Shown: positions 12,347 through 30,758, numbered from the stretch's first letter. The stretch is 32,000 bases of DNA from Caldivirga maquilingensis IC-167 (GCF_000018305.1 NC_009954.1:1500001-1532000), one strand, 5' to 3'. The notes: generated by a model not told the origin, from the letters alone. Made by a program: numbers and translations.

Positions 12347-12396
12347 GGTTCATTCACCGGTGGAAATTCATTAACGCATTCAATGCACGGCATCGT

Positions 12397-13128: not shown

Positions 13129-13170
13129 GTTTAATTTAAATGCTTAGCGCAAACCCAGTAACCGTTAACG

Positions 13171-13178
13171 CTTAAATA
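13171..13178 (+). promoter_or_regulatory. TATA-like box cttaaata centred about 27 nt upstream of ATG 13202
   Basis: It lies in the 73-nt divergent intergenic region between the MoxR operon and the plus-strand island. The spacing fits a leaderless transcript. Confidence 0.35.
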
Positions 13179-13201
13179 CCTGAATCAGCATCCTTAGTGG
13201 A

Positions 13202-13612: not shown

Positions 13613-13622
13613 GCCATGCAAA

Positions 13623-14645: not shown

Positions 14646-14800
14646 ACATGTTAACGCTAATTCATGGATTATTAAATGAGAGTAATGTGGAGTACACTGT
14701 TCAGTTTAACCATAGCCCTCAAGTACTAGTTAAAGTAATTGAATCAAGTCATGTTGCAGTACACTACCATTCCTAAGGAAATAGAATTAGACTATTTAGA

Positions 14801-15226
14801 GTGAGCGGCGAGTACCCTGCTATTCTTAGGAGGAGGGCCGAGGCCATGCTGGCACTAGCTCAGAGGTTACTGAATGAGGGTGAGTATGATCTGGCAGTAC
14901 TCAATGCGGAGTACGCAGCACAACTATACCTCAAAAGCCTACTCTATAGGTTAACTGGGGAGGAGTGGCGAGGGCACGGTATACGTGAACTCCTTGGGGC
15001 ACTGGCCGTGGCGTTAAAAAACCTAAACCAGGATGAAGGGGCTGATGAGGTGGCGGAGTACGTTAGGAGGTATAGGGCGTATCTAGCGGAGTTGGAGGAG
15101 GGGCATGTTAGGTCCGTGTACGGTGTTTACAGCTACGGGAGGGACCAGGCGGAGGCCCTGGTCTCCACGGCAGGAAACCTCATAAGCTTCCTCCAAAAAA
15201 TAGAGAGGGGGGTTTTCGGCGAATGA
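14801..15226 (+). CDS. HEPN domain protein (PF05168 type), partner of the downstream minimal nucleotidyltransferase
   Basis: 141 aa. LNEGEYDLAVLNAEYAAQLYLKSLLYRLTG...GHGIRELL and LEEGHVRSVYG...DQAEALV fit the HEPN four-helix pattern. No canonical Rx4-6H motif is visible. It starts at a GTG and has an ATGA overlap with the next gene. Confidence 0.7.
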   Translation: MSGEYPAILRRRAEAMLALAQRLLNEGEYDLAVLNAEYAAQLYLKSLLYRLTGEEWRGHGIRELLGALAVALKNLNQDEGADEVAEYVRRYRAYLAELEEGHVRSVYGVYSYGRDQAEALVSTAGNLISFLQKIERGVFGE

Positions 15227-15552
15227 TGGATGAGAGGTTAAGCATGCTCAGGGAGTGGAGGGAATGGGCGAGGGCGGTGGCGGAGGCGGTGAAGAGGGTT
15301 AGGGGGGATGCGGAGGTTTACGTAATTGGGGGTGCAGTCGAGGGTAGGCTTACGGTACTAAGCGACATAGATGTACTCATAGCCCTACCACAAAGCCCAA
15401 GCCTCCAGGAGGCTGCAAAACTAAGGGCAGAGGTATGGGTTGAGATGGAGAGGATGGGACTACCACCACACTTACCAATAGAGCTGCACATAATAGGTAC
15501 GGAACAACTAGCCAGGTACATCAAGGGGAAGCCCGTGGTGAGGTTAGCGTAG
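15223..15552 (+). CDS. Minimal nucleotidyltransferase (MNT, Pol-beta superfamily)
   Basis: 109 aa. VYVIGGAVEGRLTVLSDIDVLIA matches the G[GS]x9-13DxD motif. The stop codon lies 1 nt before the start of ATPase paralog 3. Confidence 0.8.
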   Translation: MMDERLSMLREWREWARAVAEAVKRVRGDAEVYVIGGAVEGRLTVLSDIDVLIALPQSPSLQEAAKLRAEVWVEMERMGLPPHLPIELHIIGTEQLARYIKGKPVVRLA

Positions 15553-15553
15553 C

Positions 15554-16579
15554 ATGAAGCGGGTAAAACTCAGGTTTGCGGACCGTGAGGTGGAGTTCGT
15601 GGATAGGGAGGTGGCAATAAGGCAAATTGAGGAATTGGCTGGAAAAGGCACATGGTGGCCCCTGGTAATCTACGGGCCTGAGGGTTGCGGGAAATCAGCA
15701 CTCCTTAAACAAGCCATTGAGGTGCTTAGAGAATATGGTTACGAAGTTTCATACATAAGCCCACTGTCCAGGTCTGGGGAGGATAGGTTCACCCTCACAG
15801 AGGGATTGAGGCGGTTAGTAACGGGCGTTGGCTCACTGCTAATTGGCGATGCATCAAGACTGATTAACATAGCCGTGGAGTTACTCTATGACGCGGTCAG
15901 GAAAAGGCTCACAGGGAGGATAGCCTTATTAGCCGATGATGTCTTCCAAGCCATTGGACTAGATAAAGCGGAATTGCTCGTAAAGGGACTACTAAACATG
16001 GTAGAGTACCCATCAGTTGATTATGAGAAAATCGTCATACTCGTATCCTCAAGTGAAGGAATAACCTGGGAACGTATTGGGCGTCATAGGTGGGCTGAGA
16101 TAAAGATCATGTGGAGCATGCCCAAGGAGGGGTTTAGGCAATTATATGAGCAAGTACCGGGACCAAAGCCGGACTTTGAACAAGTATGGAGATGGACTGG
16201 TGGAAACCCAGAAATGTTAGAGAGACTCTATGGGGCAGGCTGGGACATTAACGGCATAATCAACGACATGATTAAGGACAGGAAACTAGACATTATGGTG
16301 AAAACCCTAGACAGGGAGCAGGTGCAGATACTAAGGCGGGCCATTGAGGACCCAGATGTGATTTATGATGAGGCGGCTAGGGCTATGCCGCTAATGGATA
16401 AATTAATCGAGAATAACCTAATCATCAGGATATGGTACAGGGAGCAAAGGGTGTGGATCGATCAACCACCTGAAAAAGACCCAGAACTGGGCATAGGCAC
16501 CCACTTCGCCTGGCAGACGCCAATGCACAGGGAGGCCGTGAGGAGGGTGCTGGGCAATGAACTTGAAAGGCATAGATGA
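15554..16579 (+). CDS. Archaeal ATPase family protein (PF01637-like), paralog 3
   Basis: 341 aa. It has YGPEGCGKSALL, IALLADDVFQ and LGIGTHFAWQTPMHREAVRRVL. It shares a 31-nt identical tract with paralog 2. Confidence 0.85.
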   Translation: MKRVKLRFADREVEFVDREVAIRQIEELAGKGTWWPLVIYGPEGCGKSALLKQAIEVLREYGYEVSYISPLSRSGEDRFTLTEGLRRLVTGVGSLLIGDASRLINIAVELLYDAVRKRLTGRIALLADDVFQAIGLDKAELLVKGLLNMVEYPSVDYEKIVILVSSSEGITWERIGRHRWAEIKIMWSMPKEGFRQLYEQVPGPKPDFEQVWRWTGGNPEMLERLYGAGWDINGIINDMIKDRKLDIMVKTLDREQVQILRRAIEDPDVIYDEAARAMPLMDKLIENNLIIRIWYREQRVWIDQPPEKDPELGIGTHFAWQTPMHREAVRRVLGNELERHR

Positions 16580-16967
16580 AAACTACGTGACAAGCCTAAT
16601 GAGGGACATTGAGGGTGTAATAAATGAAATCGTAAACATATCCTCAAAACCATTCAATGAACTATCCACTGCGGAGAAATACGCAATTAGATACGGCATA
16701 ATAGTAATCGCAGAAGCACTAACAGCCCTGGGCATCGAGCCCGAACCCCCAATCCACGCACTCAGGGTACTAAGGGACAACGGACTTTTAACCCTAAACG
16801 AGTGTGATGAACTCGAAAGGCTCATAAGGCTAAGGAACCTCCTCGTACATAGGTACTGGACCGTGGATGATAGGAGGATTTACGAAAACATAAAGGGAGA
16901 CTTCAAACACATACTCAACCTAATTGATAGATTAAAGAGGGTGCAAAACCATGACAACAGTATTTAA
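16557..16967 (+). CDS. hepT: DUF86/HepT-type HEPN toxin
   Basis: 136 aa. RLIRLRNLLVHRYWTVDDRRIYE contains the canonical Rx4H (RNLLVH) motif of DUF86 HEPN RNases. It overlaps the ATPase 3' end by 23 nt; an alternative start is ATG 16599. Confidence 0.8.
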   Translation: MNLKGIDENYVTSLMRDIEGVINEIVNISSKPFNELSTAEKYAIRYGIIVIAEALTALGIEPEPPIHALRVLRDNGLLTLNECDELERLIRLRNLLVHRYWTVDDRRIYENIKGDFKHILNLIDRLKRVQNHDNSI

Positions 16968-17340
16968 GTACTACAGGCTTAATGAGGAGGAGAGGAGGAG
17001 GGTCGCCGAGAAACTGAGGGAGGTCCTCGTAACCGAGGGGGTGAAGTTAGCAATAATCTTCGGAAGCTTCATAGAGCTAGGGAGCTTCAGGGACATAGAC
17101 ATCGCAGTATACCTAGAAGACCCAGGGGACCTTGACAAAATCCTAAGGCTAGGAGTAAAACTCGAAGACACAATCAAAATCCCGGTGGACGTAGTCCCAA
17201 TCCAGGAACTACCACCAAAGCTCAGGCATAAAATACTAACCAAGGGCATGGTCATACTAGAGGAACCAGGCATGTACGAGGCGCTATGGTCTCAAACAAT
17301 GGATGAATTAACAATAATGAACACAACAAACACCCACTGA
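16951..17340 (+). CDS. mntA: MntA-type nucleotidyltransferase antitoxin
   Basis: 129 aa. LAIIFGSFIELGSFRDIDIAVYL gives the GSx10DxD motif, and PVDVVPIQELPPKLRHKILTKG is also present. It overlaps hepT by 17 nt and stops 4 nt before ATPase paralog 4. Confidence 0.8.
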   Translation: MTTVFKYYRLNEEERRRVAEKLREVLVTEGVKLAIIFGSFIELGSFRDIDIAVYLEDPGDLDKILRLGVKLEDTIKIPVDVVPIQELPPKLRHKILTKGMVILEEPGMYEALWSQTMDELTIMNTTNTH

Positions 17341-17344
17341 GCAC

Positions 17345-18361
17345 ATGAAGAGGGTAAGGCTGAGGTTCGCTGGGCGCGAGGTGGAGTTCGTGGATAGAGA
17401 AGCCGCTATTAAGTGGATCGGGGAGCTGGCTGAGAGGGGCACCGGCTTAGTCCGCGTAGTTTATGGGCCCGAGGGTTGTGGTAAGTCTGCGTTGTTTAAG
17501 CAAGCCGTGGAGGTCCTCAGGGACCACGGCTACGAGGTCTCGTACATAAGCCCACTGTCTAGAGCCGATGAGGACAGGCTAATCCTCACCGAGGGGCTTA
17601 GGAAATTGTTCGTGGACCTTGGGTCCGTCTTCGTTGGTGACGCAGCAAGACTAATCGACACAGCCGTGAAATTGCTATACGACGCAGTGAGGAGGAGGCT
17701 TACAGGGAGGATAGCCCTACTCGCCGATGACGTATTCCAAGCAGTAGGGCTGGACAAAGCTGAGCTGTTAGTCAAAGGATTCCTAAACATGATAGAGTAC
17801 CCGCCGGTTGATTATGAGAAGATAGTCGTAATAGTGGCGTCGAGCGAAGGCGTCACAAGGGGGAGAGTGGGTAGGCACAGGTGGGCGTTTTTACACATCA
17901 TGTGGAACATGCCCAGGGAAGGCTTCGAGAAACTCTACGAGGAAATACCTGGGCCAAAGCCCCCGTTTGAAGACGTGTGGAAATGGACCGGTGGGAACCC
18001 CAAGGCGCTGGAAACCCTCTGGGAATTAAACTGGGACGTAGACAGATACGTAGACAACGTGATAAAGTCGAGAGAGCTTATGAAAATGGCGGCGGAGCTA
18101 AGCAGCGCAGAAACCGAAATACTGACACAGTCGCTGGATGACCCGGACGTCCTCTTAAAACGGTACAGGGAGGCCAAGGGACTCGTGCAGAGACTTATAG
18201 AGAACAACTTGATAATAGAGATATGGAAAAGGGACCAGGACTGGGTGGACGTGCCGCCGCCCGAGAGGGATCCCGAGCTGGGCATCGGAAAATACTTCGC
18301 CTGGCAAACACCAATGCACAGGGAAGTGGTAAAGAGGGTACTCGAGGAAACAAAAACATAA
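17345..18361 (+). CDS. Archaeal ATPase family protein (PF01637-like), paralog 4
   Basis: 338 aa. It has YGPEGCGKSALF, IALLADDVFQ and LGIGKYFAWQTPMHREVVKRVL. The 5' end is about 60% GC by hand count. Confidence 0.85.
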   Translation: MKRVRLRFAGREVEFVDREAAIKWIGELAERGTGLVRVVYGPEGCGKSALFKQAVEVLRDHGYEVSYISPLSRADEDRLILTEGLRKLFVDLGSVFVGDAARLIDTAVKLLYDAVRRRLTGRIALLADDVFQAVGLDKAELLVKGFLNMIEYPPVDYEKIVVIVASSEGVTRGRVGRHRWAFLHIMWNMPREGFEKLYEEIPGPKPPFEDVWKWTGGNPKALETLWELNWDVDRYVDNVIKSRELMKMAAELSSAETEILTQSLDDPDVLLKRYREAKGLVQRLIENNLIIEIWKRDQDWVDVPPPERDPELGIGKYFAWQTPMHREVVKRVLEETKT

Positions 18362-18383
18362 ACCCCCACACAACCAAACACAC

Positions 18384-18941
18384 ATGGCAACCATAACAAT
18401 ACCCAAGAAACTATACGAAGCACTAAGGAAACACGGAATAGACGTAGAGACAAAGGCAATTGAGGCACTACTAAAAGAAGCCCAACTAGACCCCAATGAA
18501 GAAGCCGAGATACACCTAGAACTAGCACAAAAACTCCTCAATGAAGGCGAAGCACTGATCGAGAAGGACCCCATACAAGCAGGCGAGAAGCTGTATAAGG
18601 CGGCCGAGGAAAGCGTCAAGGCGCTAGCCATACACTACAACCTAAAGGACATACTCGAAAAAGCGAGAGATAGAGGTAGATGGACAGTTACGGAGCTCGA
18701 AAAAGCAGTCCTCCAGATCTCGAGCAGAGCCGGCGAGTGGTTCAGAAGAGCCTGGGACGCAGCATGGACACTACATGTATGGGGATTCCACGAAGCAAAA
18801 TTCGACAGCGAGGACGTGAGGGAGAGGGAGCCCGACATTAAGAGAATAATTGAGGAGGCGATAAAAGCGATAGGCAGGGACGGGGAGAACAAAGACTTTA
18901 AAGACACCACGGACAATAAACACAGTGAAACTACACATTAA
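18384..18941 (+). CDS. PaREP1-like protein (archaeal PaREP1/PaREP8 family, HEPN-clan-like helical protein)
   Basis: 185 aa. EAEIHLELAQKLLNEGEALIEKDPIQAGEKLYKAAEESVKALA...RGRWTV...WFRRAWDAAWTLHVWGFHEAKFDSEDV resembles my recollection of the PaREP1 consensus. No Rx4-6H motif is visible. Confidence 0.55.
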   Translation: MATITIPKKLYEALRKHGIDVETKAIEALLKEAQLDPNEEAEIHLELAQKLLNEGEALIEKDPIQAGEKLYKAAEESVKALAIHYNLKDILEKARDRGRWTVTELEKAVLQISSRAGEWFRRAWDAAWTLHVWGFHEAKFDSEDVREREPDIKRIIEEAIKAIGRDGENKDFKDTTDNKHSETTH

Positions 18942-19848
18942 GAACTGGAGAAGCATAGAGGAAGTAGAGATAGAACTAAAGCCAGTAACAATAATCATGG
19001 GGCCAAACGACGCAGGGAAATCAAGCCTCGCATACGCACCGTACTTCCTAACAAAAACCATCAAGTGGAGAGACGCAAACAAAGTACTAAAATTACTATA
19101 CGGCACAGAACTAAACAACATCGCAAGGCACGAATACGACAAACCACAATACCCAGTAATAATCGAAGTAGACGGAGCACGCTTCAAGGCTCAAAACCCC
19201 AACGATGTAAAGAAAGCCGACATAGAGATAGCTGGGGAAAGTCCCTGGAACGACGGCTACCTACTACCATCGGGAAGGCTTACCTTCATGAAAATGCTAC
19301 GAATAGTGCCTAGAATCCTCAGACAGATAACAAGAACACGAGACTATTCAGCATTTCCACCACCGATGTACCTATTCCTCGATGATTTAGTGAGGATTCA
19401 CGGGATTGGCCCCCTACTACTGGAGCATGAACTAACCGAGTACACAGACCCATTTGCAAAAGCAAAACTACCACTAAACCTAGCACCAGACGGAACCACA
19501 GACCACTCACTAATAAACCTCTTCATAAACAACGTCCAGGAAGGCAGCCTACTAATCATCGAGGAACCAGAAATACACAAAAACCCAACCCTAGTGATAG
19601 AACTCACAAGACAAATAACACAGGAAGCAATAAACAAAAAACTAACAATAATAATAACAACACACAGCGACATAATACCACAAACAATAGCCAAAACCGT
19701 GGAAGAAGGCAAAACAAAGCCGAACAACGTAGCAATCTACTACCTAGAGAGAAAACCCTGGACACAGGCAAGGGAACTAAAGATCCACGAAGACGGCACA
19801 ATAGAGGAACTACCAGACGTGGAGAAAATAATCACGGAATTATTCTAA
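18925..19848 (+). CDS. Compact ABC/SMC-type ATPase (AAA_15/AAA_21-like, no coiled coil)
   Basis: 307 aa. NWRSIEEVEIELKPVTIIMGPNDAGKSSL gives the N-terminal strand and Walker A. LAPDGTTDHSLINL is signature-like. LLIIEEPEIHKNPTLV gives Walker B and the EEPE.h.hP motif typical of AAA_21. IIITTHSD is the H-loop. It overlaps the upstream gene by 17 nt. Confidence 0.7.
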   Translation: MKLHIKNWRSIEEVEIELKPVTIIMGPNDAGKSSLAYAPYFLTKTIKWRDANKVLKLLYGTELNNIARHEYDKPQYPVIIEVDGARFKAQNPNDVKKADIEIAGESPWNDGYLLPSGRLTFMKMLRIVPRILRQITRTRDYSAFPPPMYLFLDDLVRIHGIGPLLLEHELTEYTDPFAKAKLPLNLAPDGTTDHSLINLFINNVQEGSLLIIEEPEIHKNPTLVIELTRQITQEAINKKLTIIITTHSDIIPQTIAKTVEEGKTKPNNVAIYYLERKPWTQARELKIHEDGTIEELPDVEKIITELF

Positions 19849-19849
19849 C

Positions 19850-20404
19850 ATGACCCTACACGTAATCCTAGACCACTCAGCACTCATACCCTGCGGAGAC
19901 AAGCCAAAGGAGGAGAAAGAGGCGATAAGAGAGATCATGAATAGGATCATGGACATAGACGTAACATGGCACGTAACCGGATACTACCTTAAAGTACTAA
20001 ACACGGTACTCAACAAAAACCTAAAGAACCACCACCCACTCCCCAGGTTACTAGCATCATTAGAAAGAACAAAAAGATACCTCCTGGAACTCTCAAGGAG
20101 CAAACAAATTATATGCAAACCACGCAGGCTTAAAAGCTTAAAAATACACGTAATAGCAAGGAAGGCCTCGGAAAGGGTAGAGATACCCCATAGCGAAAGA
20201 CTAAACGAGATAAACAACGAAGACGTAGAAATAATCGCAATAGGATTGACAATTGCAGAAAGAATAAAAGGCGAAAAACCAGTGTACATAGTCACGACAG
20301 ACACAAAACTTGAAGAAGCCATAGATGAACTAGAGAAACTAGGAATAAAAGAATTAAAGGCAATAACACCAAGCAAATTATTAGAAGAATTACCAAAACA
20401 ATGA
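19850..20404 (+). CDS. PIN-like domain protein (putative nuclease partner of the ABC-type ATPase)
   Basis: 184 aa. It has an N-terminal HVILDHSAL (strand plus Asp), internal acidic positions (EEKEAIRE, NEDVEIIAIGL) and a C-terminal VYIVTTDTKLEEA, matching the spacing of the PIN acidic quartet by eye. It starts 1 nt after the ATPase stop. Confidence 0.5.
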   Translation: MTLHVILDHSALIPCGDKPKEEKEAIREIMNRIMDIDVTWHVTGYYLKVLNTVLNKNLKNHHPLPRLLASLERTKRYLLELSRSKQIICKPRRLKSLKIHVIARKASERVEIPHSERLNEINNEDVEIIAIGLTIAERIKGEKPVYIVTTDTKLEEAIDELEKLGIKELKAITPSKLLEELPKQ

Positions 20405-20416
20405 AAGCATAGAAGC

Positions 20417-21508
20417 ATGAGGATAGTACACGTAGCACCATTTTATAAACCGGTAATAGGCGGCGTGGAGGAGGTAGTGCAAAGAATAGCGGAGTACACA
20501 GCAGCTAGGGGGCATGAGGTACACGTAATCACATACAATAGGCTCAGGACAGGAGGCAAAGGTGCACTACCAAGGGAGGAATGGATCAATGGGGTGCATG
20601 TAATAAGGCTGAAACCAAACTTAACATGGAGTCACGGAACATACAGTAGGGAACTACCTGAAGTACTTAGGAAACTAAAGCCAGACCTAGTCCATGTGCA
20701 CGTGTGGAGGCACCCACATGTAATCCAGGTGGCAAGGCTAAGGAGGGAGATGGGATTCAAAGCGATACTGCATGGTCATGCACCATTCCATAAACTAAAC
20801 CAAGTGGGGCCAATAACCTGGACATATTATAAACTCGTAGACACAACGCTAAGAAGCATCCTAAAGAATTACGACACATACATAGCATTAACGAAACATG
20901 AAGCAGAAACAATAAGGAGAATGGGACTAGAAGAAGACAAAATAATGGTAATACCGAATGGAATAAACCAGGATCAATGCATACTAAGCAATGAAAGAGA
21001 GGACATGGTACTTTACCTGGGTAGAATCAGTAAGGTAAAGAACATTGAATTACTAGTAAAGGCCGCGAAATACATAAAGCATGCACAATTAGTAATTGCA
21101 GGGCCAGATGAAGGACTAATAAATACAATACTACAATATGCAGGAAAACACAACATAGAAGTAAAGTATCTAGGCGCAGTGAGTGAGGAAAAGAAACATG
21201 AATTATACCTAAAAGCCAAGGCCTATGCACTACCATCAATATATGAACCATTTGGAATAACACTACTCGAAGCAGGAATACACGCAACACCAAGCGTGAT
21301 AACGGGGAATGGGGGACAAGTCTACGCAGCACCACCAGGTAAGGCAAGCCTATGGGCAGAACCAAAGCCGGAGAAATACGCTGAAGCCATCATACAACTG
21401 CTAACCGACCAAGAGCTACATAGGAGATTAAGCCAAGGCGCTCTTCAGCACGCTGAACAACACCTATGGAGCAAAATACTACCAAGGTACGAGGAAATAT
21501 ATGGCTAA
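20417..21508 (+). CDS. Glycosyltransferase family 4 (GT-B, Glyco_trans_4 + Glycos_transf_1)
   Basis: 363 aa. The N-terminus is MRIVHVAPFYKPVIGGVEEVV...GHEVHVIT. The C-terminal motif is PSIYEPFGITLLEAGIHATPSVIT (Ex7E). Confidence 0.85.
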   Translation: MRIVHVAPFYKPVIGGVEEVVQRIAEYTAARGHEVHVITYNRLRTGGKGALPREEWINGVHVIRLKPNLTWSHGTYSRELPEVLRKLKPDLVHVHVWRHPHVIQVARLRREMGFKAILHGHAPFHKLNQVGPITWTYYKLVDTTLRSILKNYDTYIALTKHEAETIRRMGLEEDKIMVIPNGINQDQCILSNEREDMVLYLGRISKVKNIELLVKAAKYIKHAQLVIAGPDEGLINTILQYAGKHNIEVKYLGAVSEEKKHELYLKAKAYALPSIYEPFGITLLEAGIHATPSVITGNGGQVYAAPPGKASLWAEPKPEKYAEAIIQLLTDQELHRRLSQGALQHAEQHLWSKILPRYEEIYG

Positions 21509-22493
21509 ACCATTAATCAGTGTAGTAATTACGGCATATAATAGGAGGGAGTACTTAAGGTACGCTGTTAAATCGGTGCTAAACCAAACCTTGGATAGAA
21601 ACTTCTATGAAGTAATAGTCATAAAGAACTTCGAAGACTCATACACAGACAAATTAATTGAAGGAGTGGGTAGAACAATAAACGTAGACATAGCATCAAT
21701 AGGCGCAAAAATAGCCCTGGGAATAAGGGAGTCTGAGGGTGAAGTGGTGGCATTCCTTGAAGATGACGACTTATGGCATAGTAGGAAGCTAGAGCATGTA
21801 GCCGAGGCATTCAGAAATAACAATGACCTAATGTACTACCACCACAATACATACGCAATAGATAAATACGGAAACATAATACATGACTCGCTCATTGAGA
21901 GGACGAACATAAATAATTACGTATATGCCAGCAACGAAGATGAGAAAATGAAAGTATTCAAACAGTATGGTTGGGGCCTTGGTCTCAGGAACAGCTCCAT
22001 AGCCGTAAGAAGGGATGTATACGAAAAATACGCACCTATAATAAGACTCCTCCCAGATGCGGTGGATGTGGCACTATACCTGGTAGCGTTAAGCGTAAAG
22101 GGTTCAATAATTCATGAACCACGGAGATTAATGTTCTTTAGAATACACGAGACAAACACAAGTAGCGTGAGATTCGCACCACAGAGTGAAAGGCTACATA
22201 GGGTAGCCGTGAACTCTGTAAAACATACCATAGCAAGATATGCACTAGCAACCATCGCCAGGCACATAAAGCCCCAACTAACCAGATACGCAGGCTATGA
22301 CGAAGCATCAATAGTAGCGGGCATATTAGCAAATTGGAGGGGATACACGGCAGTAATGAGTTTAAATTTATTAAATCATTGTAAATCACTAACATGCCTA
22401 GCAACGGCAATACTAGGCATTATAAACACAATAAGCCCAGAACTAACGAAGAGAATCATCACACTATACTACACTAAAGGATTCAGACTCTAA
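21501..22493 (+). CDS. Glycosyltransferase family 2 (GT-A)
   Basis: 330 aa. It has ISVVITAYNRREYLRYAVKSVLNQT and the DxD motif AFLEDDDLW. It overlaps the upstream gene by 8 nt. Confidence 0.85.
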   Translation: MAKPLISVVITAYNRREYLRYAVKSVLNQTLDRNFYEVIVIKNFEDSYTDKLIEGVGRTINVDIASIGAKIALGIRESEGEVVAFLEDDDLWHSRKLEHVAEAFRNNNDLMYYHHNTYAIDKYGNIIHDSLIERTNINNYVYASNEDEKMKVFKQYGWGLGLRNSSIAVRRDVYEKYAPIIRLLPDAVDVALYLVALSVKGSIIHEPRRLMFFRIHETNTSSVRFAPQSERLHRVAVNSVKHTIARYALATIARHIKPQLTRYAGYDEASIVAGILANWRGYTAVMSLNLLNHCKSLTCLATAILGIINTISPELTKRIITLYYTKGFRL

Positions 22494-23632
22494 TGATAAT
22501 AGTACACACGCATCATCACTACTGGCCGGTAGCGGGAGGAATAGAAAATGCAATTAAATACCTCGCCGAGGAACAGGCAAAACTTGGTCACGAGGTGCAC
22601 ATAGTAACGGGCACCTATGGAGCCCAGAAAAGACCTAGGGAGGAAGAAATAAACGGTGTGCACGTACATAGAATTAAGGCGTGGAGATTAGGCTACCCAG
22701 ACCTAACAATACCAAGGGAAACACCTAGGGAACTGCTCAAGAGGGCTGACGTGATTCATGCTCACTCACAAAACAGCTTATTCTCAGTGAGAATAGCCCA
22801 GGAGGCACATGAGCTAGGTGTTAAGGTAGCCATACACTACATGGCTGTCGACACCCTCCAAACACACCCAAACCCAGCCATAAGGCTCCTTGGACCAATA
22901 TACGCCAGGAGAAACCTAGAAATGGCAAAGGAAATAGCGGACATACACCTAGCAAGAAGCAAAAGGGACGTAGAAAAACTAAGAAAATACGGAATACAAG
23001 CACACTACCTACCAGACGCAATACCAAAACACTACCTAACAAAACCCAAAGCAGACCCAGAGGAATTCAGGAGGAAATACGGAATAACACAGGACAAACT
23101 ATTCATATACATAGGAAGAATACACAAACTCAAGGGACCACACGTACTAGTCAAGGCGCTACCATACCTAAGCAACGACATAGCAATAATAATGGCAGGA
23201 CCAGACAACGGATACCTAAAACAAACCCTAGAACTAGCCAATAAACTACACGTGAAAGACAGACTATATTACCTAGGCTACGTAGACGAAGATACAAAAA
23301 TAAACGCCATAGACGCATCAACGGCGCTAGTCCTACCATCAACCACAGACTATGTAGAGGTATACCCCATGACAATAACCGAGGCATGGGCAAGAGAAAA
23401 ACCAGTAATAGCCACAAACGTAGGAGGAATACCATACAGGGTAACACACGGCATAAACGGACTAATAATACCACCAAACAACCCACAGGAACTAGCCAAA
23501 GCAATACAACAACTAGCAAACAACCCAGAAAAGACACAACAAATGGGTAAGGAGGGTAAAAAGGAAATCAAGACATGGGACGAAATCGCAAAAGAAACCA
23601 TAAAAATATACAACACCACAAACAACCCATGA
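22493..23632 (+). CDS. Glycosyltransferase family 4
   Basis: 379 aa. It has MIIVHTHHHYWPVAGGIENAIKYL...GHEVHIVT and VEVYPMTITEAWAREKPVIATNVGGIPYRVTHGINGLII. The junction with the upstream gene is a TAATG overlap. Confidence 0.85.
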   Translation: MIIVHTHHHYWPVAGGIENAIKYLAEEQAKLGHEVHIVTGTYGAQKRPREEEINGVHVHRIKAWRLGYPDLTIPRETPRELLKRADVIHAHSQNSLFSVRIAQEAHELGVKVAIHYMAVDTLQTHPNPAIRLLGPIYARRNLEMAKEIADIHLARSKRDVEKLRKYGIQAHYLPDAIPKHYLTKPKADPEEFRRKYGITQDKLFIYIGRIHKLKGPHVLVKALPYLSNDIAIIMAGPDNGYLKQTLELANKLHVKDRLYYLGYVDEDTKINAIDASTALVLPSTTDYVEVYPMTITEAWAREKPVIATNVGGIPYRVTHGINGLIIPPNNPQELAKAIQQLANNPEKTQQMGKEGKKEIKTWDEIAKETIKIYNTTNNP

Positions 23633-24564
23633 AAGCCCTAATAACAGGAGGGGCAGGATTCATAGGAAGCCACCTAGTAGATAAACTACTAGCAAGGGGC
23701 TACCAAGTCAAGGTAATAGACAACCTAAGCACGGGAAGAATAGAAAACATAACCCACGTACTAAACAAAATACAATTCACCAAAACAGACCTAAAAAACA
23801 TAGAAGACACACTAAAAGCACTCAAAGACACAGACGTAATATTCCACTTCGCGGCAAACCCGGAGGTCAGGGTCAGCACAGTCAGCCCTGAGGTGCACTT
23901 CAACGAGAACGTGGTCGCCACGTTCAACCTGCTCGAGGCAATGAGGAGGATGGACGTGAGGGAGATTGTGTTCGCGTCGTCTAGCTCGGTCTACGGGGAG
24001 CCTGAGGAAATACCGGTAAGCGAGGACGCGCCAACAAGGCCCGTCTCGGTCTACGGAGCGAGTAAGGCGGCCTGCGAAAATCTGATACACGCGTACTCAA
24101 GGCTCTACGGGATGAAGGCGGTGATCCTGAGGTACGCGAACGTGGTTGGGCTGAGGCTGAGGCACGGTGTAATATACGACTTAATCATGAAATTAAGGAA
24201 GGACCCAACCAGGCTGGAGGTGCTCGGCGATGGGACCCAGGTCAGGAGCTACATACACGTGGATGACGCCGTGGAGGCAACGTTAATAGCCCACGAGAGG
24301 ACTGGAGGCGGCTACCACGTATTCAACGTGGCGAGCGAGGACTGGATAACCGTGGACGAAGTCGTAAACATAATCACGGAGGAACTCGGGGCAAAGCCAG
24401 AGATAATCCACAAACCAATCCTACATGGCGTTGGCTGGCCAGGGGACGTGAAGAGGATAGCCCTGAGGATAGACAGGCTCAGGGAGCTGGGCTTCAAGCC
24501 GAGAATGAATAGTAAAGAAGCCGTGAGGGTTACCGTAAAGGCACTAATCAGGGAATCAGGATAA
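23629..24564 (+). CDS. NAD-dependent epimerase/dehydratase (extended SDR; UDP-sugar 4-epimerase or decarboxylase-like)
   Basis: It has MKALITGGAGFIGSHLV, FASSSSVYG and YGASKAACE (YxxxK). I prefer ATG 23629, which forms an ATGA overlap with the upstream stop, over the ORF-track start 23575, whose 18-aa extension overlaps the GT4 gene. Confidence 0.85.
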   Translation: MKALITGGAGFIGSHLVDKLLARGYQVKVIDNLSTGRIENITHVLNKIQFTKTDLKNIEDTLKALKDTDVIFHFAANPEVRVSTVSPEVHFNENVVATFNLLEAMRRMDVREIVFASSSSVYGEPEEIPVSEDAPTRPVSVYGASKAACENLIHAYSRLYGMKAVILRYANVVGLRLRHGVIYDLIMKLRKDPTRLEVLGDGTQVRSYIHVDDAVEATLIAHERTGGGYHVFNVASEDWITVDEVVNIITEELGAKPEIIHKPILHGVGWPGDVKRIALRIDRLRELGFKPRMNSKEAVRVTVKALIRESG

Positions 24565-24591
24565 TCATGGAATTAGCCATAAGTTAGGAGG

Positions 24592-25173
24592 ATGATGAAG
24601 ATTTTCTATAAGTTAGGAGTACAAACTGCTGGTAGGCTTGGACTCTACGTTGAGAGAACAAGAACTTACTTAAAAATTATTTTGAGGTTGATACGCGTTT
24701 TAAGGACATTAAGAAGTAAGTGTATAGCCTTAGACTTAGGCTGCGGTGATGGCTACTTTGCTTATAAAGTATCACGTCTTTGCATGTATGTTTTAGGTAT
24801 CGATATAAAATTTCACAATTCCTGGAAATCTAAACATAATGTAAATACGGAATATATTGTGGCTGATGCACGCTATTTACCGCTACGGTCTAATAGTATT
24901 GACCTTATTTACGCACTTTCACTCTTGGAGCTAGTGGAACCCCATACTAAGTTACCATTACTAGGTCTAGTACCGAAGACCCTGAGGAGAGTAATTTTGC
25001 ATCATTCTAACTATTCTGATTTACAATTTAATATACACTTAAAGAACTTAATCAGAGAGTTAAGAAAACAGTACTTTAATGTAATCGGTATAGTTCCTCA
25101 TTACCATTCTAAACATTTAAGAGTTATTCCCATAGCACCATCATATTTTATAATAGCATTAAAGGAATTATGA
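24592..25173 (+). CDS. Class I SAM-dependent methyltransferase (Methyltransf_11-like)
   Basis: 193 aa. Motif I is ALDLGCGDGYFAYKV and the post-I region is VADARYLPLRSNSIDLIYALSLLELV. Its composition differs from both neighbours (about 32% T and 34% GC in a hand-counted 120 nt). Confidence 0.6.
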   Translation: MMKIFYKLGVQTAGRLGLYVERTRTYLKIILRLIRVLRTLRSKCIALDLGCGDGYFAYKVSRLCMYVLGIDIKFHNSWKSKHNVNTEYIVADARYLPLRSNSIDLIYALSLLELVEPHTKLPLLGLVPKTLRRVILHHSNYSDLQFNIHLKNLIRELRKQYFNVIGIVPHYHSKHLRVIPIAPSYFIIALKEL

Positions 25174-25220
25174 TAATTTCAGTTTTTAAAGAACCCATGA
25201 GAGTTACCTAACAAAGGGCC

Positions 25221-26237
25221 ATGCTTAAGATAGCCCTAGCCCTAGGCTACTATGAAATCGGCGGCTTCAAAACAGTAATAGACAACCTAGCAGCAAAACT
25301 CAGCGAAAAAGGACACGAAGTCACAGTATACGCAAGGGTAATAAGAACAAAACCGCCAAAGGATGTTAACGTTATCAAAGCATCACCACAGGAATTCTAT
25401 AGAGAAACTAGAAAACACGACATAATACACGTACATACATCATACCCATACCTAAAAGTACTCGCTGACAACAACGCACTAGACAACGTAGTATTCACAT
25501 ACCATGGATACGCACCTTGGTATGAAGTACCAGGCACAACAAGCAAACTAATAAACCTATACCTACTGATTATGTACAAAAGACTACTCAAGAAGGTCAA
25601 AGTAGTAACCGCAGTCAGTAATTACGTAAAAGAACAAGTAAGAAAATTATTCAATAGGGAGGCCATAGTGATTTACAATGGCGTAAATCTCACAGTATTT
25701 AAACCAAATATGAATATAAATAAGCAGACTAACGAAATAATAATATTCAATGCAACTGCGTGGAACAGATTCAAGGGGCAGGAACGCCTAATTAAATATT
25801 ACAGGGTAATAAAAAGACAATACCCAAATGCAAAACTAATGATGAGGGGCAACTACCAAGGTAACTCTGAGGATATACAAGTGCTCCCGCCCATGGACCC
25901 AACGGAACTAGCCAAGTACTACTCAATGGCAACATTCTATTTACTAGTATCATCGTGGGAGAGCTTCGGCTTACCAATAATTGAAAGCATGGCATGCGGA
26001 ACCCCAGTAATAGCCTGGGACAGACCAGACGCCAGGCGCGAACACATACTCAACTCAGGTGCGGGCTACTTATTCAGGAACGAGGAAGAATTGCTACAGG
26101 CGGTTAAGAATGTAATAGAAAACAGAGAGGAACTGTCACAAAAAGCCATAAACTACGCAAGGCAATTTGACTGGGAAAATATTGTCAATAAATACCTAGA
26201 TGCCTACGGTGTGATCATCAATGAGGAAATACAATAA
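25221..26237 (+). CDS. Glycosyltransferase family 4
   Basis: 338 aa. It has IGGFKTVIDNLAAKLSEKGHEVTVYA and SSWESFGLPIIESMACGTPVIAWD. Confidence 0.8.
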   Translation: MLKIALALGYYEIGGFKTVIDNLAAKLSEKGHEVTVYARVIRTKPPKDVNVIKASPQEFYRETRKHDIIHVHTSYPYLKVLADNNALDNVVFTYHGYAPWYEVPGTTSKLINLYLLIMYKRLLKKVKVVTAVSNYVKEQVRKLFNREAIVIYNGVNLTVFKPNMNINKQTNEIIIFNATAWNRFKGQERLIKYYRVIKRQYPNAKLMMRGNYQGNSEDIQVLPPMDPTELAKYYSMATFYLLVSSWESFGLPIIESMACGTPVIAWDRPDARREHILNSGAGYLFRNEEELLQAVKNVIENREELSQKAINYARQFDWENIVNKYLDAYGVIINEEIQ

Positions 26238-27840
26238 AGTCGCCATATTACTAACCTCCGCCTCGATAATACTATTTACCTACTCAACAATCTCCATGAC
26301 TAAATTCACAGTTAATGTAATAACCCAATCACCATTTTACCTATACAATAACACACCATATATAGTAACAATAATCCTCACACTAATCACAACAATAATA
26401 TTAACACTCATAAATACCGGCGCAAAGAAAACATTGAACGCAATATTAATAATCATACTATGGTTCATGGTACTGGCCGAACCATACTTAACATACATAA
26501 ATGCACTACCCCTATACAACGACCAGCTAGGCTTCGTAGAAGAAGTACTGGCAATGATAAACACAGGCAGAGCAGTAGCCATACAAGGTGGTGTAACAAC
26601 ACTTGGACACGCATATTTCACATCATCACTAGCACTTCTAACAGGAATAAACGGAATAAATGCGGCAATTCTCGTTCAGCTCATAATGCCAATAATATAC
26701 GCAGTAACATACCTAGCCTTAACATCAGACATAGAAGACGTAAGAGCACGAATCCTAACCTCACTAATAATCCTAGCATCATTCCTAAACCCATTTTGGT
26801 ACGGAAGAACGCCCTTCGCCTTGATCTTCCTCGCGCTACTAACATTAATAATTTATAAACTATTCACAAAAGGAGTCAGCTACGAACAAAACACCCTGAG
26901 AATCACAATGTACATATTATACGCAGCCTACGCAATATCGGACCCCACATCACTATTCATACCATTAATATTCATGGCAGCATCTATATTTAATAAAAGA
27001 TATACATTAATATTCATAGCAACCTCACTAATATGGATCACAATTAATCTAATAGCTATGGTATCAGGAAGCCTATACTCAGCACTAATGGAACTAATAG
27101 ATCTATTCACCGCACCATCAAATCCAGTGCTCTCGCTACTAACGCCCGGCGTTAACGAAGTAATAATGATATACTACCGATTACGTGAATTAAACGTATT
27201 ACTGATGTACATAGTAGGCCTAATAATAATATACTATATAATAAATAGAATAAAAAAGAGAAATCAAGACTTCGTCAAGGATTTACTAATATTAATTTAC
27301 ATTATTTCAGTAATAACTGAAGCGGCAGCTCTCGCAATAAACAGGTGGGGAATGGTGCCATATACACTCTATACATTAAGCATAATACCAATAATGTTAA
27401 TAATATACAGGGAATACTACAACACAAAGAAAATACCCCTAGCCGCAATAATGGCAATAACCCTTTCACTTATCATAATGGCACCCGCAGTCAAATGGGG
27501 CTATGCAGCAATAGCATTCCCAACACCACATGATATAGCAGAATCACAATTCCTAACCAACTATACACAAATAAACACCCAAATATGCACCGCAGGAGCA
27601 CACCAAATCCTACAATTCTATTCATATATAAATAACAAAACACTGAACCAATATGCATTAAACCTACCAATGGGTAGCAACATACCCAGTACATGCCATA
27701 TCATAGCCATATTCTACAGGGCAATGAATACGTACAGAATGGACATGACATTAAACCAACTAATGCAAACAATAAACCAACTCGACAACAATTACAACAT
27801 AATCTACAAGGATGAAACATGGACAGTGTGGGCAAAGTAA
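26221..27840 (+). CDS. Large polytopic membrane protein with C-terminal soluble domain; candidate glycan polymerase or GT-C-type transferase
   Basis: 539 aa with about 12 or more hydrophobic helices, followed by a ~110-aa hydrophilic C-terminus. It is embedded in the GT cluster with overlaps on both sides. No AglB WWDxG motif was seen. The function is inferred from context only. Confidence 0.45.
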   Translation: MRKYNKVAILLTSASIILFTYSTISMTKFTVNVITQSPFYLYNNTPYIVTIILTLITTIILTLINTGAKKTLNAILIIILWFMVLAEPYLTYINALPLYNDQLGFVEEVLAMINTGRAVAIQGGVTTLGHAYFTSSLALLTGINGINAAILVQLIMPIIYAVTYLALTSDIEDVRARILTSLIILASFLNPFWYGRTPFALIFLALLTLIIYKLFTKGVSYEQNTLRITMYILYAAYAISDPTSLFIPLIFMAASIFNKRYTLIFIATSLIWITINLIAMVSGSLYSALMELIDLFTAPSNPVLSLLTPGVNEVIMIYYRLRELNVLLMYIVGLIIIYYIINRIKKRNQDFVKDLLILIYIISVITEAAALAINRWGMVPYTLYTLSIIPIMLIIYREYYNTKKIPLAAIMAITLSLIIMAPAVKWGYAAIAFPTPHDIAESQFLTNYTQINTQICTAGAHQILQFYSYINNKTLNQYALNLPMGSNIPSTCHIIAIFYRAMNTYRMDMTLNQLMQTINQLDNNYNIIYKDETWTVWAK

Positions 27841-30757: not shown

Positions 30758-30758
30758 G

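What the first reader, a model, noticed from the sequence alone, without database searches (positions are those of the whole stretch)
18362..23850. Extreme T-depletion and A+C skew of the coding strand across about 5.5 kb
Seen (hand counts of 120-nt samples):
- 19561-19680 has A 66, C 28, G 13 and T 13 (A+C 78%, T 11%, GC 34%).
- 23401-23520 has A 56, C 32, G 19 and T 13 (A+C 73%, T 11%).
- The same style resumes in the GT genes after 25221 (6 T in 25261-25320).
- By contrast, 1501-1620 is G+T 68% (T 35%) and 24601-24720 is T 32%.
- The skew creates the long antisense shadow ORFs in the track.

Inference: this is not ordinary purine loading, because the bias is A+C rather than A+G. One possibility is a distinct evolutionary origin for the segment. 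Another is a strand-specific mutational regime. A third is selection against oligo-T/U tracts, which act as intrinsic archaeal terminators. That would suit a very long read-through operon.
Basis: partly seen in the sequence, partly recalled or inferred. Interest (0 to 1): 0.5.

Follow-up and report, generated by a model that had tools for sequence, protein, structure and literature searches.

The report
T-starved, A/C-rich archaeal gene island
A 16-kb block of accessory genes (defence-like and sugar-transferase genes) in the hot-spring archaeon Caldivirga maquilingensis has lost most T from its coding strand through one-sided mutation pressure on a probably imported island, not through selection against T-rich stop signals.

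Summary
At four-fold sites the core has A .60, C .19, G .14, T .07. Neighbouring native genes have A .29, C .20, G .15, T .36.

The skew is not genome-wide, not the codon usage of highly expressed genes, and not specific avoidance of T-runs. It acts at nucleotide level:
- all three codon positions are affected;
- amino-acid composition is shifted;
- a 22-nt spacer is pure A/C.

Ortholog comparisons show an asymmetric excess of sense-strand G>A and T>C changes. That equals C>T and A>G on the template strand, the deamination spectrum.

The same locus in Vulcanisaeta thermophila carries the same skew. There and in two other lineages, opposite-strand genes carry the complementary skew, so it is a property of the DNA strand. 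Equivalent clusters in other relatives lack it.

Best reading: a mosaic, horizontally exchanged island carrying the imprint of strand-asymmetric mutation. What exposes the template strand is unknown. This is a new variant of a known kind, of moderate interest.

The parts
13202..29743 (+). Whole T-poor block: 20 tightly packed or overlapping co-directional genes, all skewed except the methyltransferase at 24592-25173
   Evidence: Per-gene T3 is .04-.20, against .24-.39 elsewhere in the window. AT skew profile. Only two T5+ runs on the + strand (17888, 25183) against 43 A5+ runs.
18362..23850 (+).
   Evidence: Four-fold sites: A .60, C .19, G .14, T .07.
13202..13612 (+). Small conserved ORF that opens the block. 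It has orthologs at the head of the V. thermophila, V. moutnovskia and Thermoproteus/Pyrobaculum loci.
   Evidence: tblastn 35-47% identity. T3 is .20 here and .01-.04 in V. thermophila.
13623..14645 (+). Archaeal ATPase (PF01637), island copy 1, mildly skewed (T3 .19, G3 .36)
   Evidence: Pfam E 6e-74; composition.
14801..15552 (+). HEPN / nucleotidyltransferase (MNT) pair
   Evidence: Pfam PF05168 and PF01909. T3 .18 and .11.
15554..16579 (+). ATPase_2, island copy 2. It is 81% aa and 78% nt identical to the V. thermophila island copy.
   Evidence: Difference spectrum: G>A 92 against A>G 16; T>C 49 against C>T 10.
16557..17340 (+). HepT-like RNase / MNT pair (T3 .14 and .05)
   Evidence: Pfam PF01934 and PF18765; composition.
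17345..18361 (+). ATPase_2, island copy 3 (T3 .10)
18362..18383 (+). 22-nt intergenic spacer made only of A and C (ACCCCCACACAACCAAACACAC)
   Evidence: Analogous A/C spacers occur in V. thermophila.
18384..18941 (+). PaREP1-family gene (A3 .40, T3 .08). Homologs elsewhere have T3 .22-.44.
   Evidence: Pfam E 3e-35.
18925..19848 (+). AAA_15/AAA_21 ABC-type ATPase, defence-like (A3 .50, T3 .05)
   Evidence: Pfam. PADLOC NsnB/AriA-like, E 6e-25.
19850..20404 (+). 184-aa partner protein with no family match; the most skewed gene (A3 .54, T3 .04)
   Evidence: The pair is conserved in L017 at 45% and 42% identity.
20417..21508 (+). GT4 glycosyltransferase (A3 .48, T3 .13)
   Evidence: Pfam. A V. distributa JCM 11216 fragment is 69% identical, with T3 .03.
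21501..22493 (+). GT2 glycosyltransferase (A3 .42, T3 .17)
   Evidence: Pfam.
22493..23632 (+). GT4 glycosyltransferase (A3 .51, T3 .07). Its amino-acid composition is an outlier among its 120 closest homologs.
23629..24564 (+). NAD-dependent epimerase, widely conserved (65-72% identity). T3 is .05 here and ranges from .03 to .28 in orthologs.
24592..25173 (+). Methyltransferase with normal composition (T3 .34), followed by a T5 run at 25183. It interrupts the block and is probably a later insertion.
25221..29743 (+). Second skewed stretch: GT4, a 539-aa membrane protein and two GT1-type genes (A3 .44-.52, T3 .11-.14)
   Evidence: Four-fold sites: A .59, C .20, G .11, T .09.
29802..31655 (+). 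Right flank with normal composition (T3 .26-.36): a split GT remnant and an FkbM methyltransferase

Best explanation
The segment is the core of a roughly 16.5-kb mosaic accessory island of Caldivirga maquilingensis. The island holds ATPase_2, HEPN-MNT, PaREP1 and AAA_15 modules, followed by a glycosyltransferase/epimerase cluster.

Shown:
- The sense strand has been pushed towards A and C and away from T and G by a nucleotide-level, strand-asymmetric substitution pressure.
- On the sense strand the changes are G>A and T>C, with some T>A and C>A. On the template strand these are C>T and A>G, the spectrum of hydrolytic deamination.
- The pressure acts at all three codon positions, shifts amino-acid composition towards K/N/T/Q/H/P, and leaves unconstrained spacers as pure A/C.
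- In three related loci it crosses genes of opposite orientation, so there it is a property of the DNA strand, not of the mRNA.

Inferred:
- The island belongs to a horizontally exchanged locus that carries the same skew in Vulcanisaeta thermophila and part of it in two other Vulcanisaeta.
- It probably arrived in Caldivirga already skewed.
- The 13.6-18.4 kb part is now drifting back towards native composition.

Guess: the template strand was repeatedly the exposed single strand at high temperature. This could happen during asymmetric replication or single-strand transfer of the island lineage, or during head-on replication of the array.

Selection against T-tract terminators and translational codon selection are not the cause.
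For: Foreign composition:
- Four-fold sites are A .60, C .19, G .14, T .07 in the core and A .29, C .20, G .15, T .36 in native window genes, at the same GC.
- Core loci of the congener Caldivirga sp. UBA161, including POR, ribosomal protein P1 and IleRS, have T3 .22-.46.

Mutational signature:
- Cmaq 15554 compared with V. thermophila 3852: G>A 92 against A>G 16; T>C 49 against C>T 10. The asymmetry appears at codon positions 1, 2 and 3, and transversions are few and symmetric.
- Epimerase, V. distributa DSM 14429 compared with V. thermophila: G>A 107/22, T>C 62/6.
- GT4, Thermoproteus compared with Cmaq: G>A 126/26.
- Control pair Thermoproteus/Pyrobaculum is symmetric: 46/41 and 18/16.
- Amino-acid index (KNTQHP minus GVWCFL) of the Cmaq GT4 is +0.121. 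The median of its 120 closest homologs is -0.069 and the next highest value is +0.005.
- Spacers: window 18362-18383 is pure A/C. V. thermophila 3788-3851 has A32 C23 G5 T4.

Strand-level domains:
- V. thermophila minus-strand genes have sense A3 .03-.04 and T3 .40-.43, next to plus-strand genes with A3 .33-.52 and T3 .03-.13.
- Pyrobaculum sp. DRTY-8: minus-strand genes including a Pfam-supported GT2 have A3 .02-.05 and T3 .17-.24. They flank a plus-strand gene with A3 .29 and T3 .02.
- Metagenome locus L118 shows the same pattern.

Horizontal origin:
- Nearest relatives lie outside the genus.
- The epimerase identity matrix is star-like, 65-72% between nearly all pairs.
- Boundaries fall at gene junctions, and an unskewed gene is inserted at 24592-25173.
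- The same locus is unskewed in V. distributa DSM 14429, L086 and L089.

Relaxation: parsimony assigns C>T 18 and A>G 14 to the Cmaq lineage of gene 15554.
Against: - No integrase, tRNA gene, att-like repeat or plasmid/virus homology marks the island as mobile.
- No DNA more than 80% identical was found in any other genome, so neither a donor nor a recent transfer is demonstrated.
- The window holds no minus-strand gene inside the block. The strand-level nature is therefore shown only in related loci.
- One 155-nt spacer inside the block (14646-14800) is not skewed (A56, T48).
- In all 21 strongly skewed domains found in 1.6 Mb, the query gene lies on the A-rich strand. This ties the polarity to the direction of the main gene array and leaves room for a transcription-linked cause.
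- The outgroups used for polarisation are themselves skewed and partly saturated.
- The rest of the C. maquilingensis genome could not be read. Absence of the skew genome-wide rests on 15 window genes and 34 genes of a congener.
Confidence: 0.6

Rival explanations
1. Selection against oligo-T (U-tract) intrinsic terminators. T is purged from the sense strand so that one very long operon can be read through.
For: There are only two T5+ runs on the sense strand in 16.5 kb, against 43 on the antisense strand. One of the two lies exactly after the inserted methyltransferase, at 25183. The genes are tightly packed or overlapping.
Against: T3+, T4+ and T5+ runs are as frequent as in synonymous-codon shuffles: 10 observed against 13.7 +/- 2.5 expected; 1 against 2.1; 0 against 0.3. 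Depletion therefore affects single T bases, not runs.

Homologous co-directional GT clusters of 13-18 kb (L086, L089, L083) carry 0.55-1.9 T5+ runs per kb.

This reading does not explain loss of G at synonymous sites. It also does not explain the T-rich, A-poor sense strands of opposite-strand genes inside the domains.
Confidence: 0.06
2. Selection on the mRNA or codons: translational optimisation, or thermophile purine (A) loading of transcripts.
For: The sense strand is 62% purine. NNC is preferred over NNT, as expected where GNN anticodons read both codons. All 21 skewed domains have the query gene on the A-rich strand.
Against: Highly expressed genes of a congener (POR, ribosomal protein P1) and the solute-binding protein gene in the window have T3 .24-.39.

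G3 is depleted and C3 exceeds G3, the opposite of purine loading.

Positions 1 and 2, amino-acid composition and spacers are also shifted.

Opposite-strand genes carry the complementary skew, not the same one.
Confidence: 0.1
3. In-situ chromosomal process in Caldivirga. The block is persistently replicated in one direction, head-on to its transcription or next to a local origin or fork barrier. Its template strand is then the lagging-strand template and deaminates in place.
For: The spectrum matches deamination of an exposed strand. Related loci show strand-level domains. The locus sits at a syntenic position in Caldivirga and Vulcanisaeta.
Against: The adjacent 13 kb shows no strand-level skew in either gene orientation. 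The block ends at gene junctions, and a single unskewed gene sits inside it. The Cmaq lineage of gene 15554 appears to be losing the skew. No origin-type features were seen in the window.
Confidence: 0.14
4. Plain horizontal transfer from a donor whose whole genome uses A/C-ending codons, with no strand-asymmetric mutation involved.
For: Thermoproteaceae genomes are T3-poor (.03-.12), with A3 above T3. The nearest relatives of several island genes are Thermoproteus or Pyrobaculum. Low-GC contigs L074 and L118 show A3 .5-.65.
Against: No sampled genome combines the island's GC3 (about .43) with A3 of about .5 and T3 of about .05 outside such islands.

Orthologs at the same locus range from unskewed to extreme, at similar protein distance.

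Within the skewed domains, opposite-strand genes have the complementary skew. A sense-strand codon habit would not produce that.
Confidence: 0.1

Closest known systems
Strand asymmetry of vertebrate mitochondrial DNA (A+C-rich L-strand sense, G+T-rich H strand), attributed to deamination of the H strand while single-stranded during strand-displacement replication (own knowledge; reviewed in PMC3269012)
   Same: The sense strand is rich in A and C and poor in G and T at synonymous sites. The driving changes are sense G>A and T>C, that is C>T and A>G on the template strand. Amino-acid composition is dragged along. The few genes on the other strand carry the complementary skew.
   Different: Here the skew is a 10-17 kb domain embedded in a 2-Mb archaeal chromosome, with mosaic gene-level boundaries. 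It is not a whole replicon with a known asymmetric replication mode. No gradient with position was seen.
Replication-associated GC/AT skew of bacterial replichores (leading strand G+T-rich; lagging-strand-template cytosine deamination; Lobry 1996 and Bhagwat 2016, as cited in PMC12999951)
   Same: The skew is strand-level, dominated by transitions, and independent of gene orientation in three related loci.
   Different: It is local, not replichore-wide. The amplitude is far larger, with AT skew +0.4 to +0.5. The flanking 13 kb is unskewed. Archaeal skews are reported to be generally weak (PMC12999951).
Compositionally atypical, horizontally exchanged surface-polysaccharide loci (for example bacterial O-antigen and capsule clusters), and amelioration of foreign DNA (own knowledge)
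   Same: This is a variable glycosyltransferase cluster at a conserved position, with a star-like gene tree, gene-by-gene mosaic composition and signs of drift back towards host composition.
   Different: The atypical feature is not GC content, which equals the host's at four-fold sites. It is a one-strand A-for-T and C-for-G replacement.
Purine loading of thermophile mRNAs (Szybalski's rule; Lao and Forsdyke 2000; own knowledge)
   Same: The sense strand is A-rich and 62% purine in a hyperthermophile.
   Different: G is depleted, not loaded. C3 exceeds G3. Spacers are A/C rather than A/G. Opposite-strand genes are pyrimidine-rich on their sense strand.
Strand skew of Pyrobaculum spherical virus (Globuloviridae)
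   Same: It shows a strand-level keto/amino skew in a Thermoproteales mobile replicon. Plus-strand genes have A3 .09-.17 and T3 .26-.40. Minus-strand genes have A3 .31-.34 and T3 .15-.17.
   Different: The skew is weaker, and the majority of genes sit on the keto-rich strand, the opposite polarity. There is no sequence similarity to the island.

Membership tests
Strand-asymmetric mutational skew (exposed-strand deamination type) | Reciprocal substitution classes are unequal: G>A far above A>G and T>C far above C>T on one strand | tested here: met
   92/16 and 49/10 for the ATPase_2 pair; 107/22 and 62/6 for the epimerase; the control pair is symmetric.
Strand-asymmetric mutational skew (exposed-strand deamination type) | Acts on all sites: codon positions 1 and 2, amino-acid composition and non-coding DNA | tested here: met
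   Position-wise asymmetry; amino-acid index outlier; A/C spacers. One spacer, 14646-14800, is not skewed.
Strand-asymmetric mutational skew (exposed-strand deamination type) | Genes on the opposite strand carry the complementary skew | tested here: inconclusive
   Met in related loci L085, L016 and L118. Not testable in the window, which has no minus-strand gene inside 13.2-29.7 kb.
Replichore-scale replication skew | The skew extends over the whole replichore and switches sign at the origin or terminus | tested here: not met
   The block is 16.5 kb. The flanks on both sides and one internal gene are unskewed, and no mirrored skew appears to the left.
Horizontally acquired genomic island | Composition atypical for the host genome | tested here: met
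   The host background was sampled only from the window and a congener.
Horizontally acquired genomic island | Phylogenetic incongruence, or absence from close relatives | tested here: met
   The best non-self hits of GT4 are Thermoproteus/Pyrobaculum MAG proteins (75/73%), and no other Caldivirga hit ranks above them. The island ATPase_2 groups with V. thermophila and Thermoproteus copies, not with the native copy. The epimerase matrix is star-like.
Horizontally acquired genomic island | Mobility hallmarks: integrase, tRNA target, flanking direct repeats | tested here: not met
   No tRNA gene, no flanking repeats, no integrase or transposase among the Pfam hits.
Terminator (T-tract) avoidance | T-runs are rarer than expected from the genes' own codon usage | tested here: not met
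   Observed counts lie within the shuffle distributions.
Terminator (T-tract) avoidance | Comparable long co-directional clusters also avoid T-runs | tested here: not met
   L086, L089 and L083 carry 0.55-1.9 T5+ runs per kb.
Translational codon bias / purine loading | Shared with highly expressed genes of the genome; confined to synonymous choice; the same on both strands | tested here: not met
   POR, ribosomal protein P1 and the solute-binding protein gene are not T3-poor. Non-synonymous sites are shifted. Opposite-strand genes are complementary.

The most novel reading that the evidence does not exclude
Hyperthermophilic Thermoprotei may have a so far undescribed process that repeatedly exposes one defined strand of whole accessory islands (defence and glycosylation loci) as single-stranded DNA. 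Candidates are single-strand transfer, asymmetric replication of excised island copies, and long-tract break-induced synthesis from a conserved flank. The extreme A/C-rich sense strand would be the heat-deamination footprint of that process. The skew would then be a genomic tracer of an unknown archaeal route of DNA mobility or replication.
Probability: 0.25. Interest if true: 0.75.

Novelty: new variant of a known kind. Interest (0 to 1): 0.55.

Why it matters
Strand skews in archaea are usually weak and hard to interpret. Here the skew is local and extreme, recurs at the same type of locus in at least four lineages, and has a clean deamination-type spectrum.

- If the cause is exposure of one strand as single-stranded DNA, the skew points to how variable surface-glycan and defence islands move or replicate in hyperthermophiles. 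It also gives a simple compositional marker to find such islands.
- The skew is strong enough to reshape protein composition towards K/N/T/Q/H/P. This matters for phylogeny and for composition-based binning.
- It generates long spurious antisense ORFs, which matters for gene calling. In a T-poor block the A-poor strand lacks stop codons.

Tried and rejected
- T-run test against synonymous-codon shuffles: no extra depletion.
- High-expression codon usage: rejected from congener core loci and the solute-binding protein gene in the window.
- Similarity to phage and plasmid records by blastn: none.
- Relatives of AAA_15 and GT4 in IMG/VR: none.
- tRNA genes, att-like repeats and Rfam families in the window: none.
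- Source genome in genome contigs: absent, best hit 59%.
- Exact-protein look-ups for the window-end genes and for a second V. thermophila locus failed. The window could not be extended, and neither genome could be sampled further.
- Metagenome scan for closer relatives of the island ATPase_2: best 53%, so no donor was found, though the scan added further strand-level examples.
- blastn of the window against all 160 fetched loci: nothing above 80% identity.
- Neighbour-base context of G>A and T>C changes: no strong motif (30-46% and 14-31%). There is therefore no sign of a motif-specific deaminase, though the test is confounded by codon structure.
- Amelioration from a GC-rich Thermoproteaceae donor under native Caldivirga pressure: rejected as the sole cause. 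Native genes are T3- and G3-rich, so drift would raise T, not A.
- Literature search for a prior description in Vulcanisaeta, Caldivirga or Crenarchaeota found nothing specific.

Full report
OBSERVATION

Region 18362-23850 has A .405, C .219, G .213 and T .163, with an AT skew of +0.3 to +0.5. In 500-nt windows, T averages .167 (maximum .224) inside the segment and .296 (minimum .228) in 1-13200.

Per gene, third-position T (T3) is .04-.19 for 18 plus-strand genes between 13623 and 29743. It is .24-.39 for the other 14 genes of the window, on both strands (Mann-Whitney p = 9e-7).

The feature is therefore larger than reported. It spans 13.2-29.7 kb and holds 20 tightly packed or overlapping co-directional genes. 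One of them, the methyltransferase at 24592-25173, is a normal gene (T3 .34) followed by a T5 run.

Over the whole segment G is about equal to C, so the bulk skew is A over T. At synonymous sites the skew is truly A+C: A3 about .50, C3 .27, G3 .16, T3 .06.

The antisense shadow ORFs are real. Nine minus-strand ORFs of 100 aa or more lie under Pfam-supported plus-strand genes. The likely reason is that all three stop codons need an A, and the antisense strand is A-poor.

In 1.6 Mb of related Thermoprotei loci, only 0.86% of 1.5-kb windows reach |AT skew| of 0.4 or more. In this window, 8 of 62 do.

WHAT THE GENES ARE

The source is Caldivirga maquilingensis. Three window proteins are 100% identical to NCBI proteins of that species, on a 2,077,567-bp contig. 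Two independent Logan assemblies are 100% identical to 20.3-29.6 kb of the window, so the skew is not an assembly artefact.

Contents of the block:
- a small conserved ORF;
- three ATPase_2 genes, interleaved with a HEPN/MNT pair and a HepT/MNT pair;
- a PaREP1 gene;
- an AAA_15 ABC-type ATPase (PADLOC NsnB/AriA-like) with an unknown 184-aa partner;
- GT4, GT2, GT4 and a conserved NAD-dependent epimerase;
- the unskewed methyltransferase;
- GT4, a 539-aa membrane protein and two GT1-type genes.

The left 13 kb holds native-looking genes: an ATPase_2, an HTH regulator, a solute-binding protein, RmlD, and a MoxR/DUF58/DUF4350/DUF4129 cluster.

NOT GENOME-WIDE, NOT EXPRESSION-LINKED, NOT T-RUN AVOIDANCE

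Native window genes have four-fold sites at A .29, C .20, G .15, T .36. The core of the block has A .60, C .19, G .14, T .07, at the same GC.

Two 21-kb core loci of Caldivirga sp. UBA161 have T3 .22-.46 in all 34 ORFs. These loci include pyruvate:ferredoxin oxidoreductase, ribosomal protein P1, IleRS and TBP. The solute-binding protein gene in the window has T3 .31. The island usage is therefore not the codon usage of highly expressed genes.

T-runs of 3, 4 or 5 and more are as frequent as in shuffles that permute synonymous codons: 10 observed against 13.7 expected, 1 against 2.1, and 0 against 0.3. Homologous co-directional GT clusters of 13-18 kb without the skew carry 0.55-1.9 T5+ runs per kb on the sense strand (L086, L089, L083). 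A long GT operon evidently does not need T depletion.

A NUCLEOTIDE-LEVEL, ONE-STRAND PRESSURE

Four lines of evidence point to pressure on the DNA and not on codons.

1. Ortholog comparisons, from the less skewed copy to the more skewed copy, are strongly asymmetric.
   - Cmaq ATPase_2 (15554) and its V. thermophila relative are 81% aa and 78% nt identical. They differ by G>A 92 against A>G 16, and T>C 49 against C>T 10. The asymmetry is present at codon positions 1, 2 and 3, and transversions are few and symmetric.
   - Epimerase, V. distributa DSM 14429 to V. thermophila: G>A 107/22, T>C 62/6, T>A 48/6.
   - GT4, Thermoproteus to Cmaq: G>A 126/26, C>A 46/14.
   - The control pair Thermoproteus/Pyrobaculum is symmetric: 46/41 and 18/16.
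2. Amino-acid composition follows.
   - The Cmaq GT4 has KNTQHP .34 and GVWCFL .22. Its V. moutnovskia ortholog has .22 and .35.
   - Among the 120 closest homologs, the Cmaq GT4 is the extreme outlier, at +0.121 against a median of -0.069.
   - Several proteins end in A/C-codon tails such as ...NTTNTH...NTTNNP and ...KHSETTH.
3. Spacers are affected.
   - Window 18362-18383 is 22 nt of pure A/C.
   - V. thermophila spacers are A32 C23 G5 T4 and A35 C23 G8 T13.
   - The 155-nt spacer at 14646-14800 is an exception (A56, T48).
4. In related loci the skew crosses gene orientation.
   - V. thermophila: two minus-strand genes have sense A3 .03-.04 and T3 .40-.43. One is an ORF of 501 codons that runs off the locus end and has G1 .37, so it is probably a real gene. 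They lie beside plus-strand genes with A3 .33-.52 and T3 .03-.13.
   - Pyrobaculum sp. DRTY-8: minus-strand genes, including a Pfam-supported GT2, have A3 .02-.05 and T3 .17-.24. They flank a plus-strand gene with A3 .29 and T3 .02. The background of that MAG is A3 about .14 and T3 about .09 in both orientations.
   - Metagenome locus L118: three minus-strand genes with T3 .48-.54 lie beside six plus-strand genes with A3 .49-.66.

On the template strand the changes are C>T and A>G, with some G>T and A>T. These are the products of deamination and, less so, of depurination or oxidation. From general knowledge, such damage is much faster in single-stranded DNA and at high temperature. No strong neighbour-base motif was seen, which argues against a motif-specific deaminase.

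A MOSAIC, EXCHANGED LOCUS

The same arrangement recurs in V. distributa DSM 14429, V. moutnovskia, V. thermophila, V. distributa JCM 11216, and Thermoproteus and Pyrobaculum MAGs. It consists of the small ORF, ATPase_2, PaREP1 and AAA_15 modules, and then a long co-directional GT cluster around the conserved epimerase.

The epimerase is 65-72% identical between almost all pairs, a star-like pattern. Its composition nevertheless varies widely:

| Source | A3 | T3 |
|---|---|---|
| V. thermophila | .52 | .03 |
| C. maquilingensis | .29 | .05 |
| V. distributa JCM 11216 | .31-.32 | .05-.06 |
| V. moutnovskia | .22 | .14 |
| V. distributa DSM 14429 | .20 | .28 |

In V. thermophila the skewed domain is at least 17 kb long.

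The island ATPase_2 genes group with V. thermophila (up to 81%) and Thermoproteus (58-62%) copies. They do not group with the native Cmaq copy at 1486 (46-48%), whose own relatives are Vulcanisaeta proteins at 64-70%. The GT4 at 22493 is 75% and 73% identical to Thermoproteus and Pyrobaculum MAG proteins, but 51% to V. moutnovskia. No other Caldivirga protein ranks above these.

Third positions at conserved residues are only about 50% identical between these orthologs, yet T3 stays at .05-.07 in all three. The T-poverty is therefore long-lived.

Parsimony suggests that V. thermophila is still being driven (G>A 24, T>C 8). It also suggests that the Cmaq copy at 15554 is relaxing (C>T 18, A>G 14). 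This fits the weaker skew of 13.6-18.4 kb. The polarisation is weak because the outgroups are themselves skewed.

Gene-junction boundaries and the single unskewed gene inside the block fit assembly from pieces of different history better than a regional process acting in place.

No integrase, tRNA gene, flanking repeat, or virus or plasmid similarity was found. No DNA from another genome is more than 80% identical. The donor and the vehicle remain unknown.

MECHANISM: SHOWN AND INFERRED

Shown:
- a directional, strand-asymmetric, mostly transitional substitution pressure;
- independence from gene orientation in three related loci;
- absence from the flanks and from homologous clusters in other genomes.

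Inferred:
- the island lineage acquired the skew outside its present context and was imported;
- the exposed strand is the template strand of the main gene array.

Open: what exposes that strand.

Transcription exposes the non-template strand and would give the opposite sign. From general knowledge, and from the references listed in PMC12999951, that sign matches the mild G+T excess at third positions of native genes. Replichore-scale replication skew is excluded by the local extent.

Pyrobaculum spherical virus shows that strand-level keto/amino skew exists in Thermoproteales replicons. It is weaker there and has the opposite gene polarity.

All 21 strongly skewed domains in 1.6 Mb have the query gene on the A-rich strand. 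The polarity is therefore tied to the direction of the gene array. A replicon or transfer origin with fixed orientation, or persistent head-on replication, could explain this, but it keeps a transcription-linked cause alive.

COMPARISON WITH KNOWN SYSTEMS AND NOVELTY

The closest analogue is the mitochondrial L/H-strand asymmetry. It shares the sign, the spectrum, the effect on proteins, and the complementary skew of the minority-strand genes.

The skew fails the tests for replichore skew, purine loading, translational bias and terminator avoidance. It meets two of three criteria for a horizontally acquired island; mobility hallmarks are absent.

I found no description of such local domains in Crenarchaeota in the searchable literature. 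I rate it a new variant of a known kind, with interest 0.55.

The most novel reading still open is that the skew is the footprint of an unknown single-strand replication or transfer route for accessory islands (probability about 0.25).

Noticed in passing
window 538-1131 (-): A 197-aa ORF with only a family-B DNA polymerase exonuclease domain (PF03104, E 4e-9). It may be a fragment or a split/inactivated PolB paralog, and lies next to AT-rich non-coding DNA.
   Followed up: no
window 5909-6455: A 547-nt non-coding stretch that is T- and G-rich on the + strand (A129 C84 G137 T197). It lies between the solute-binding protein gene and RmlD. There is no Rfam hit.
   Followed up: partly
window 7448-12346 (-): A MoxR-type AAA_3 ATPase with DUF58, DUF4350 and DUF4129 proteins in one minus-strand cluster. 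Its composition is normal, and it served as the internal control.
   Followed up: no
window 18925-20404 (+); L017 2042-3637: An AAA_15/AAA_21 ATPase (PADLOC NsnB/AriA-like, E 6e-25) paired with an unknown 184-aa protein that matches no family. The pair is conserved in a Desulfurococcales MAG at 45% and 42% identity. It may be a two-gene defence module.
   Followed up: partly
window 29802-30757 (+): Two adjacent short ORFs (181 aa and 134 aa). The second is only the C-terminal part of a GT1 domain. Together they look like a disrupted glycosyltransferase gene, with normal composition.
   Followed up: no
window 13623-18361 (+): A threefold repeat of ATPase_2 genes (59-65% aa identity). A HEPN/MNT pair lies between copies 1 and 2, and a HepT/MNT pair between copies 2 and 3. 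The skew differs gene by gene (T3 .05-.19).
   Followed up: partly
L083 (V. distributa DSM 14429) 8683-9963 and 14767-15795: Glycosyltransferase-cluster genes with the opposite extreme on their sense strand: A3 .06-.10 and T3 .47-.49. They include a pyruvyl transferase. The minus-strand genes nearby have T3 .08-.19, so the + strand is A-poor throughout.
   Followed up: no
L087 (Pyrobaculum spherical virus, AJ635161): The genome has a strand-level keto/amino skew. Plus-strand genes have A3 .09-.17 and T3 .26-.40. The three minus-strand genes examined have A3 .31-.34 and T3 .15-.17.
   Followed up: partly
L074 1-14525 and L118 1-10940: Low-GC Desulfurococcales-type contigs full of ATPase_2, AAA_15 and Toprim-like genes, with + strand A .40-.42 and T .21-.25. 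In L118 the skew runs through three minus-strand genes. This may be a lineage with a genome-wide strand skew.
   Followed up: partly
L120 5983-7005: A single GT4 gene, the ortholog of window 20417, with A3 .55 and T3 .05. Its neighbours have T3 .18-.28. This is a one-gene mosaic piece with the same skew in a metagenome contig.
   Followed up: no
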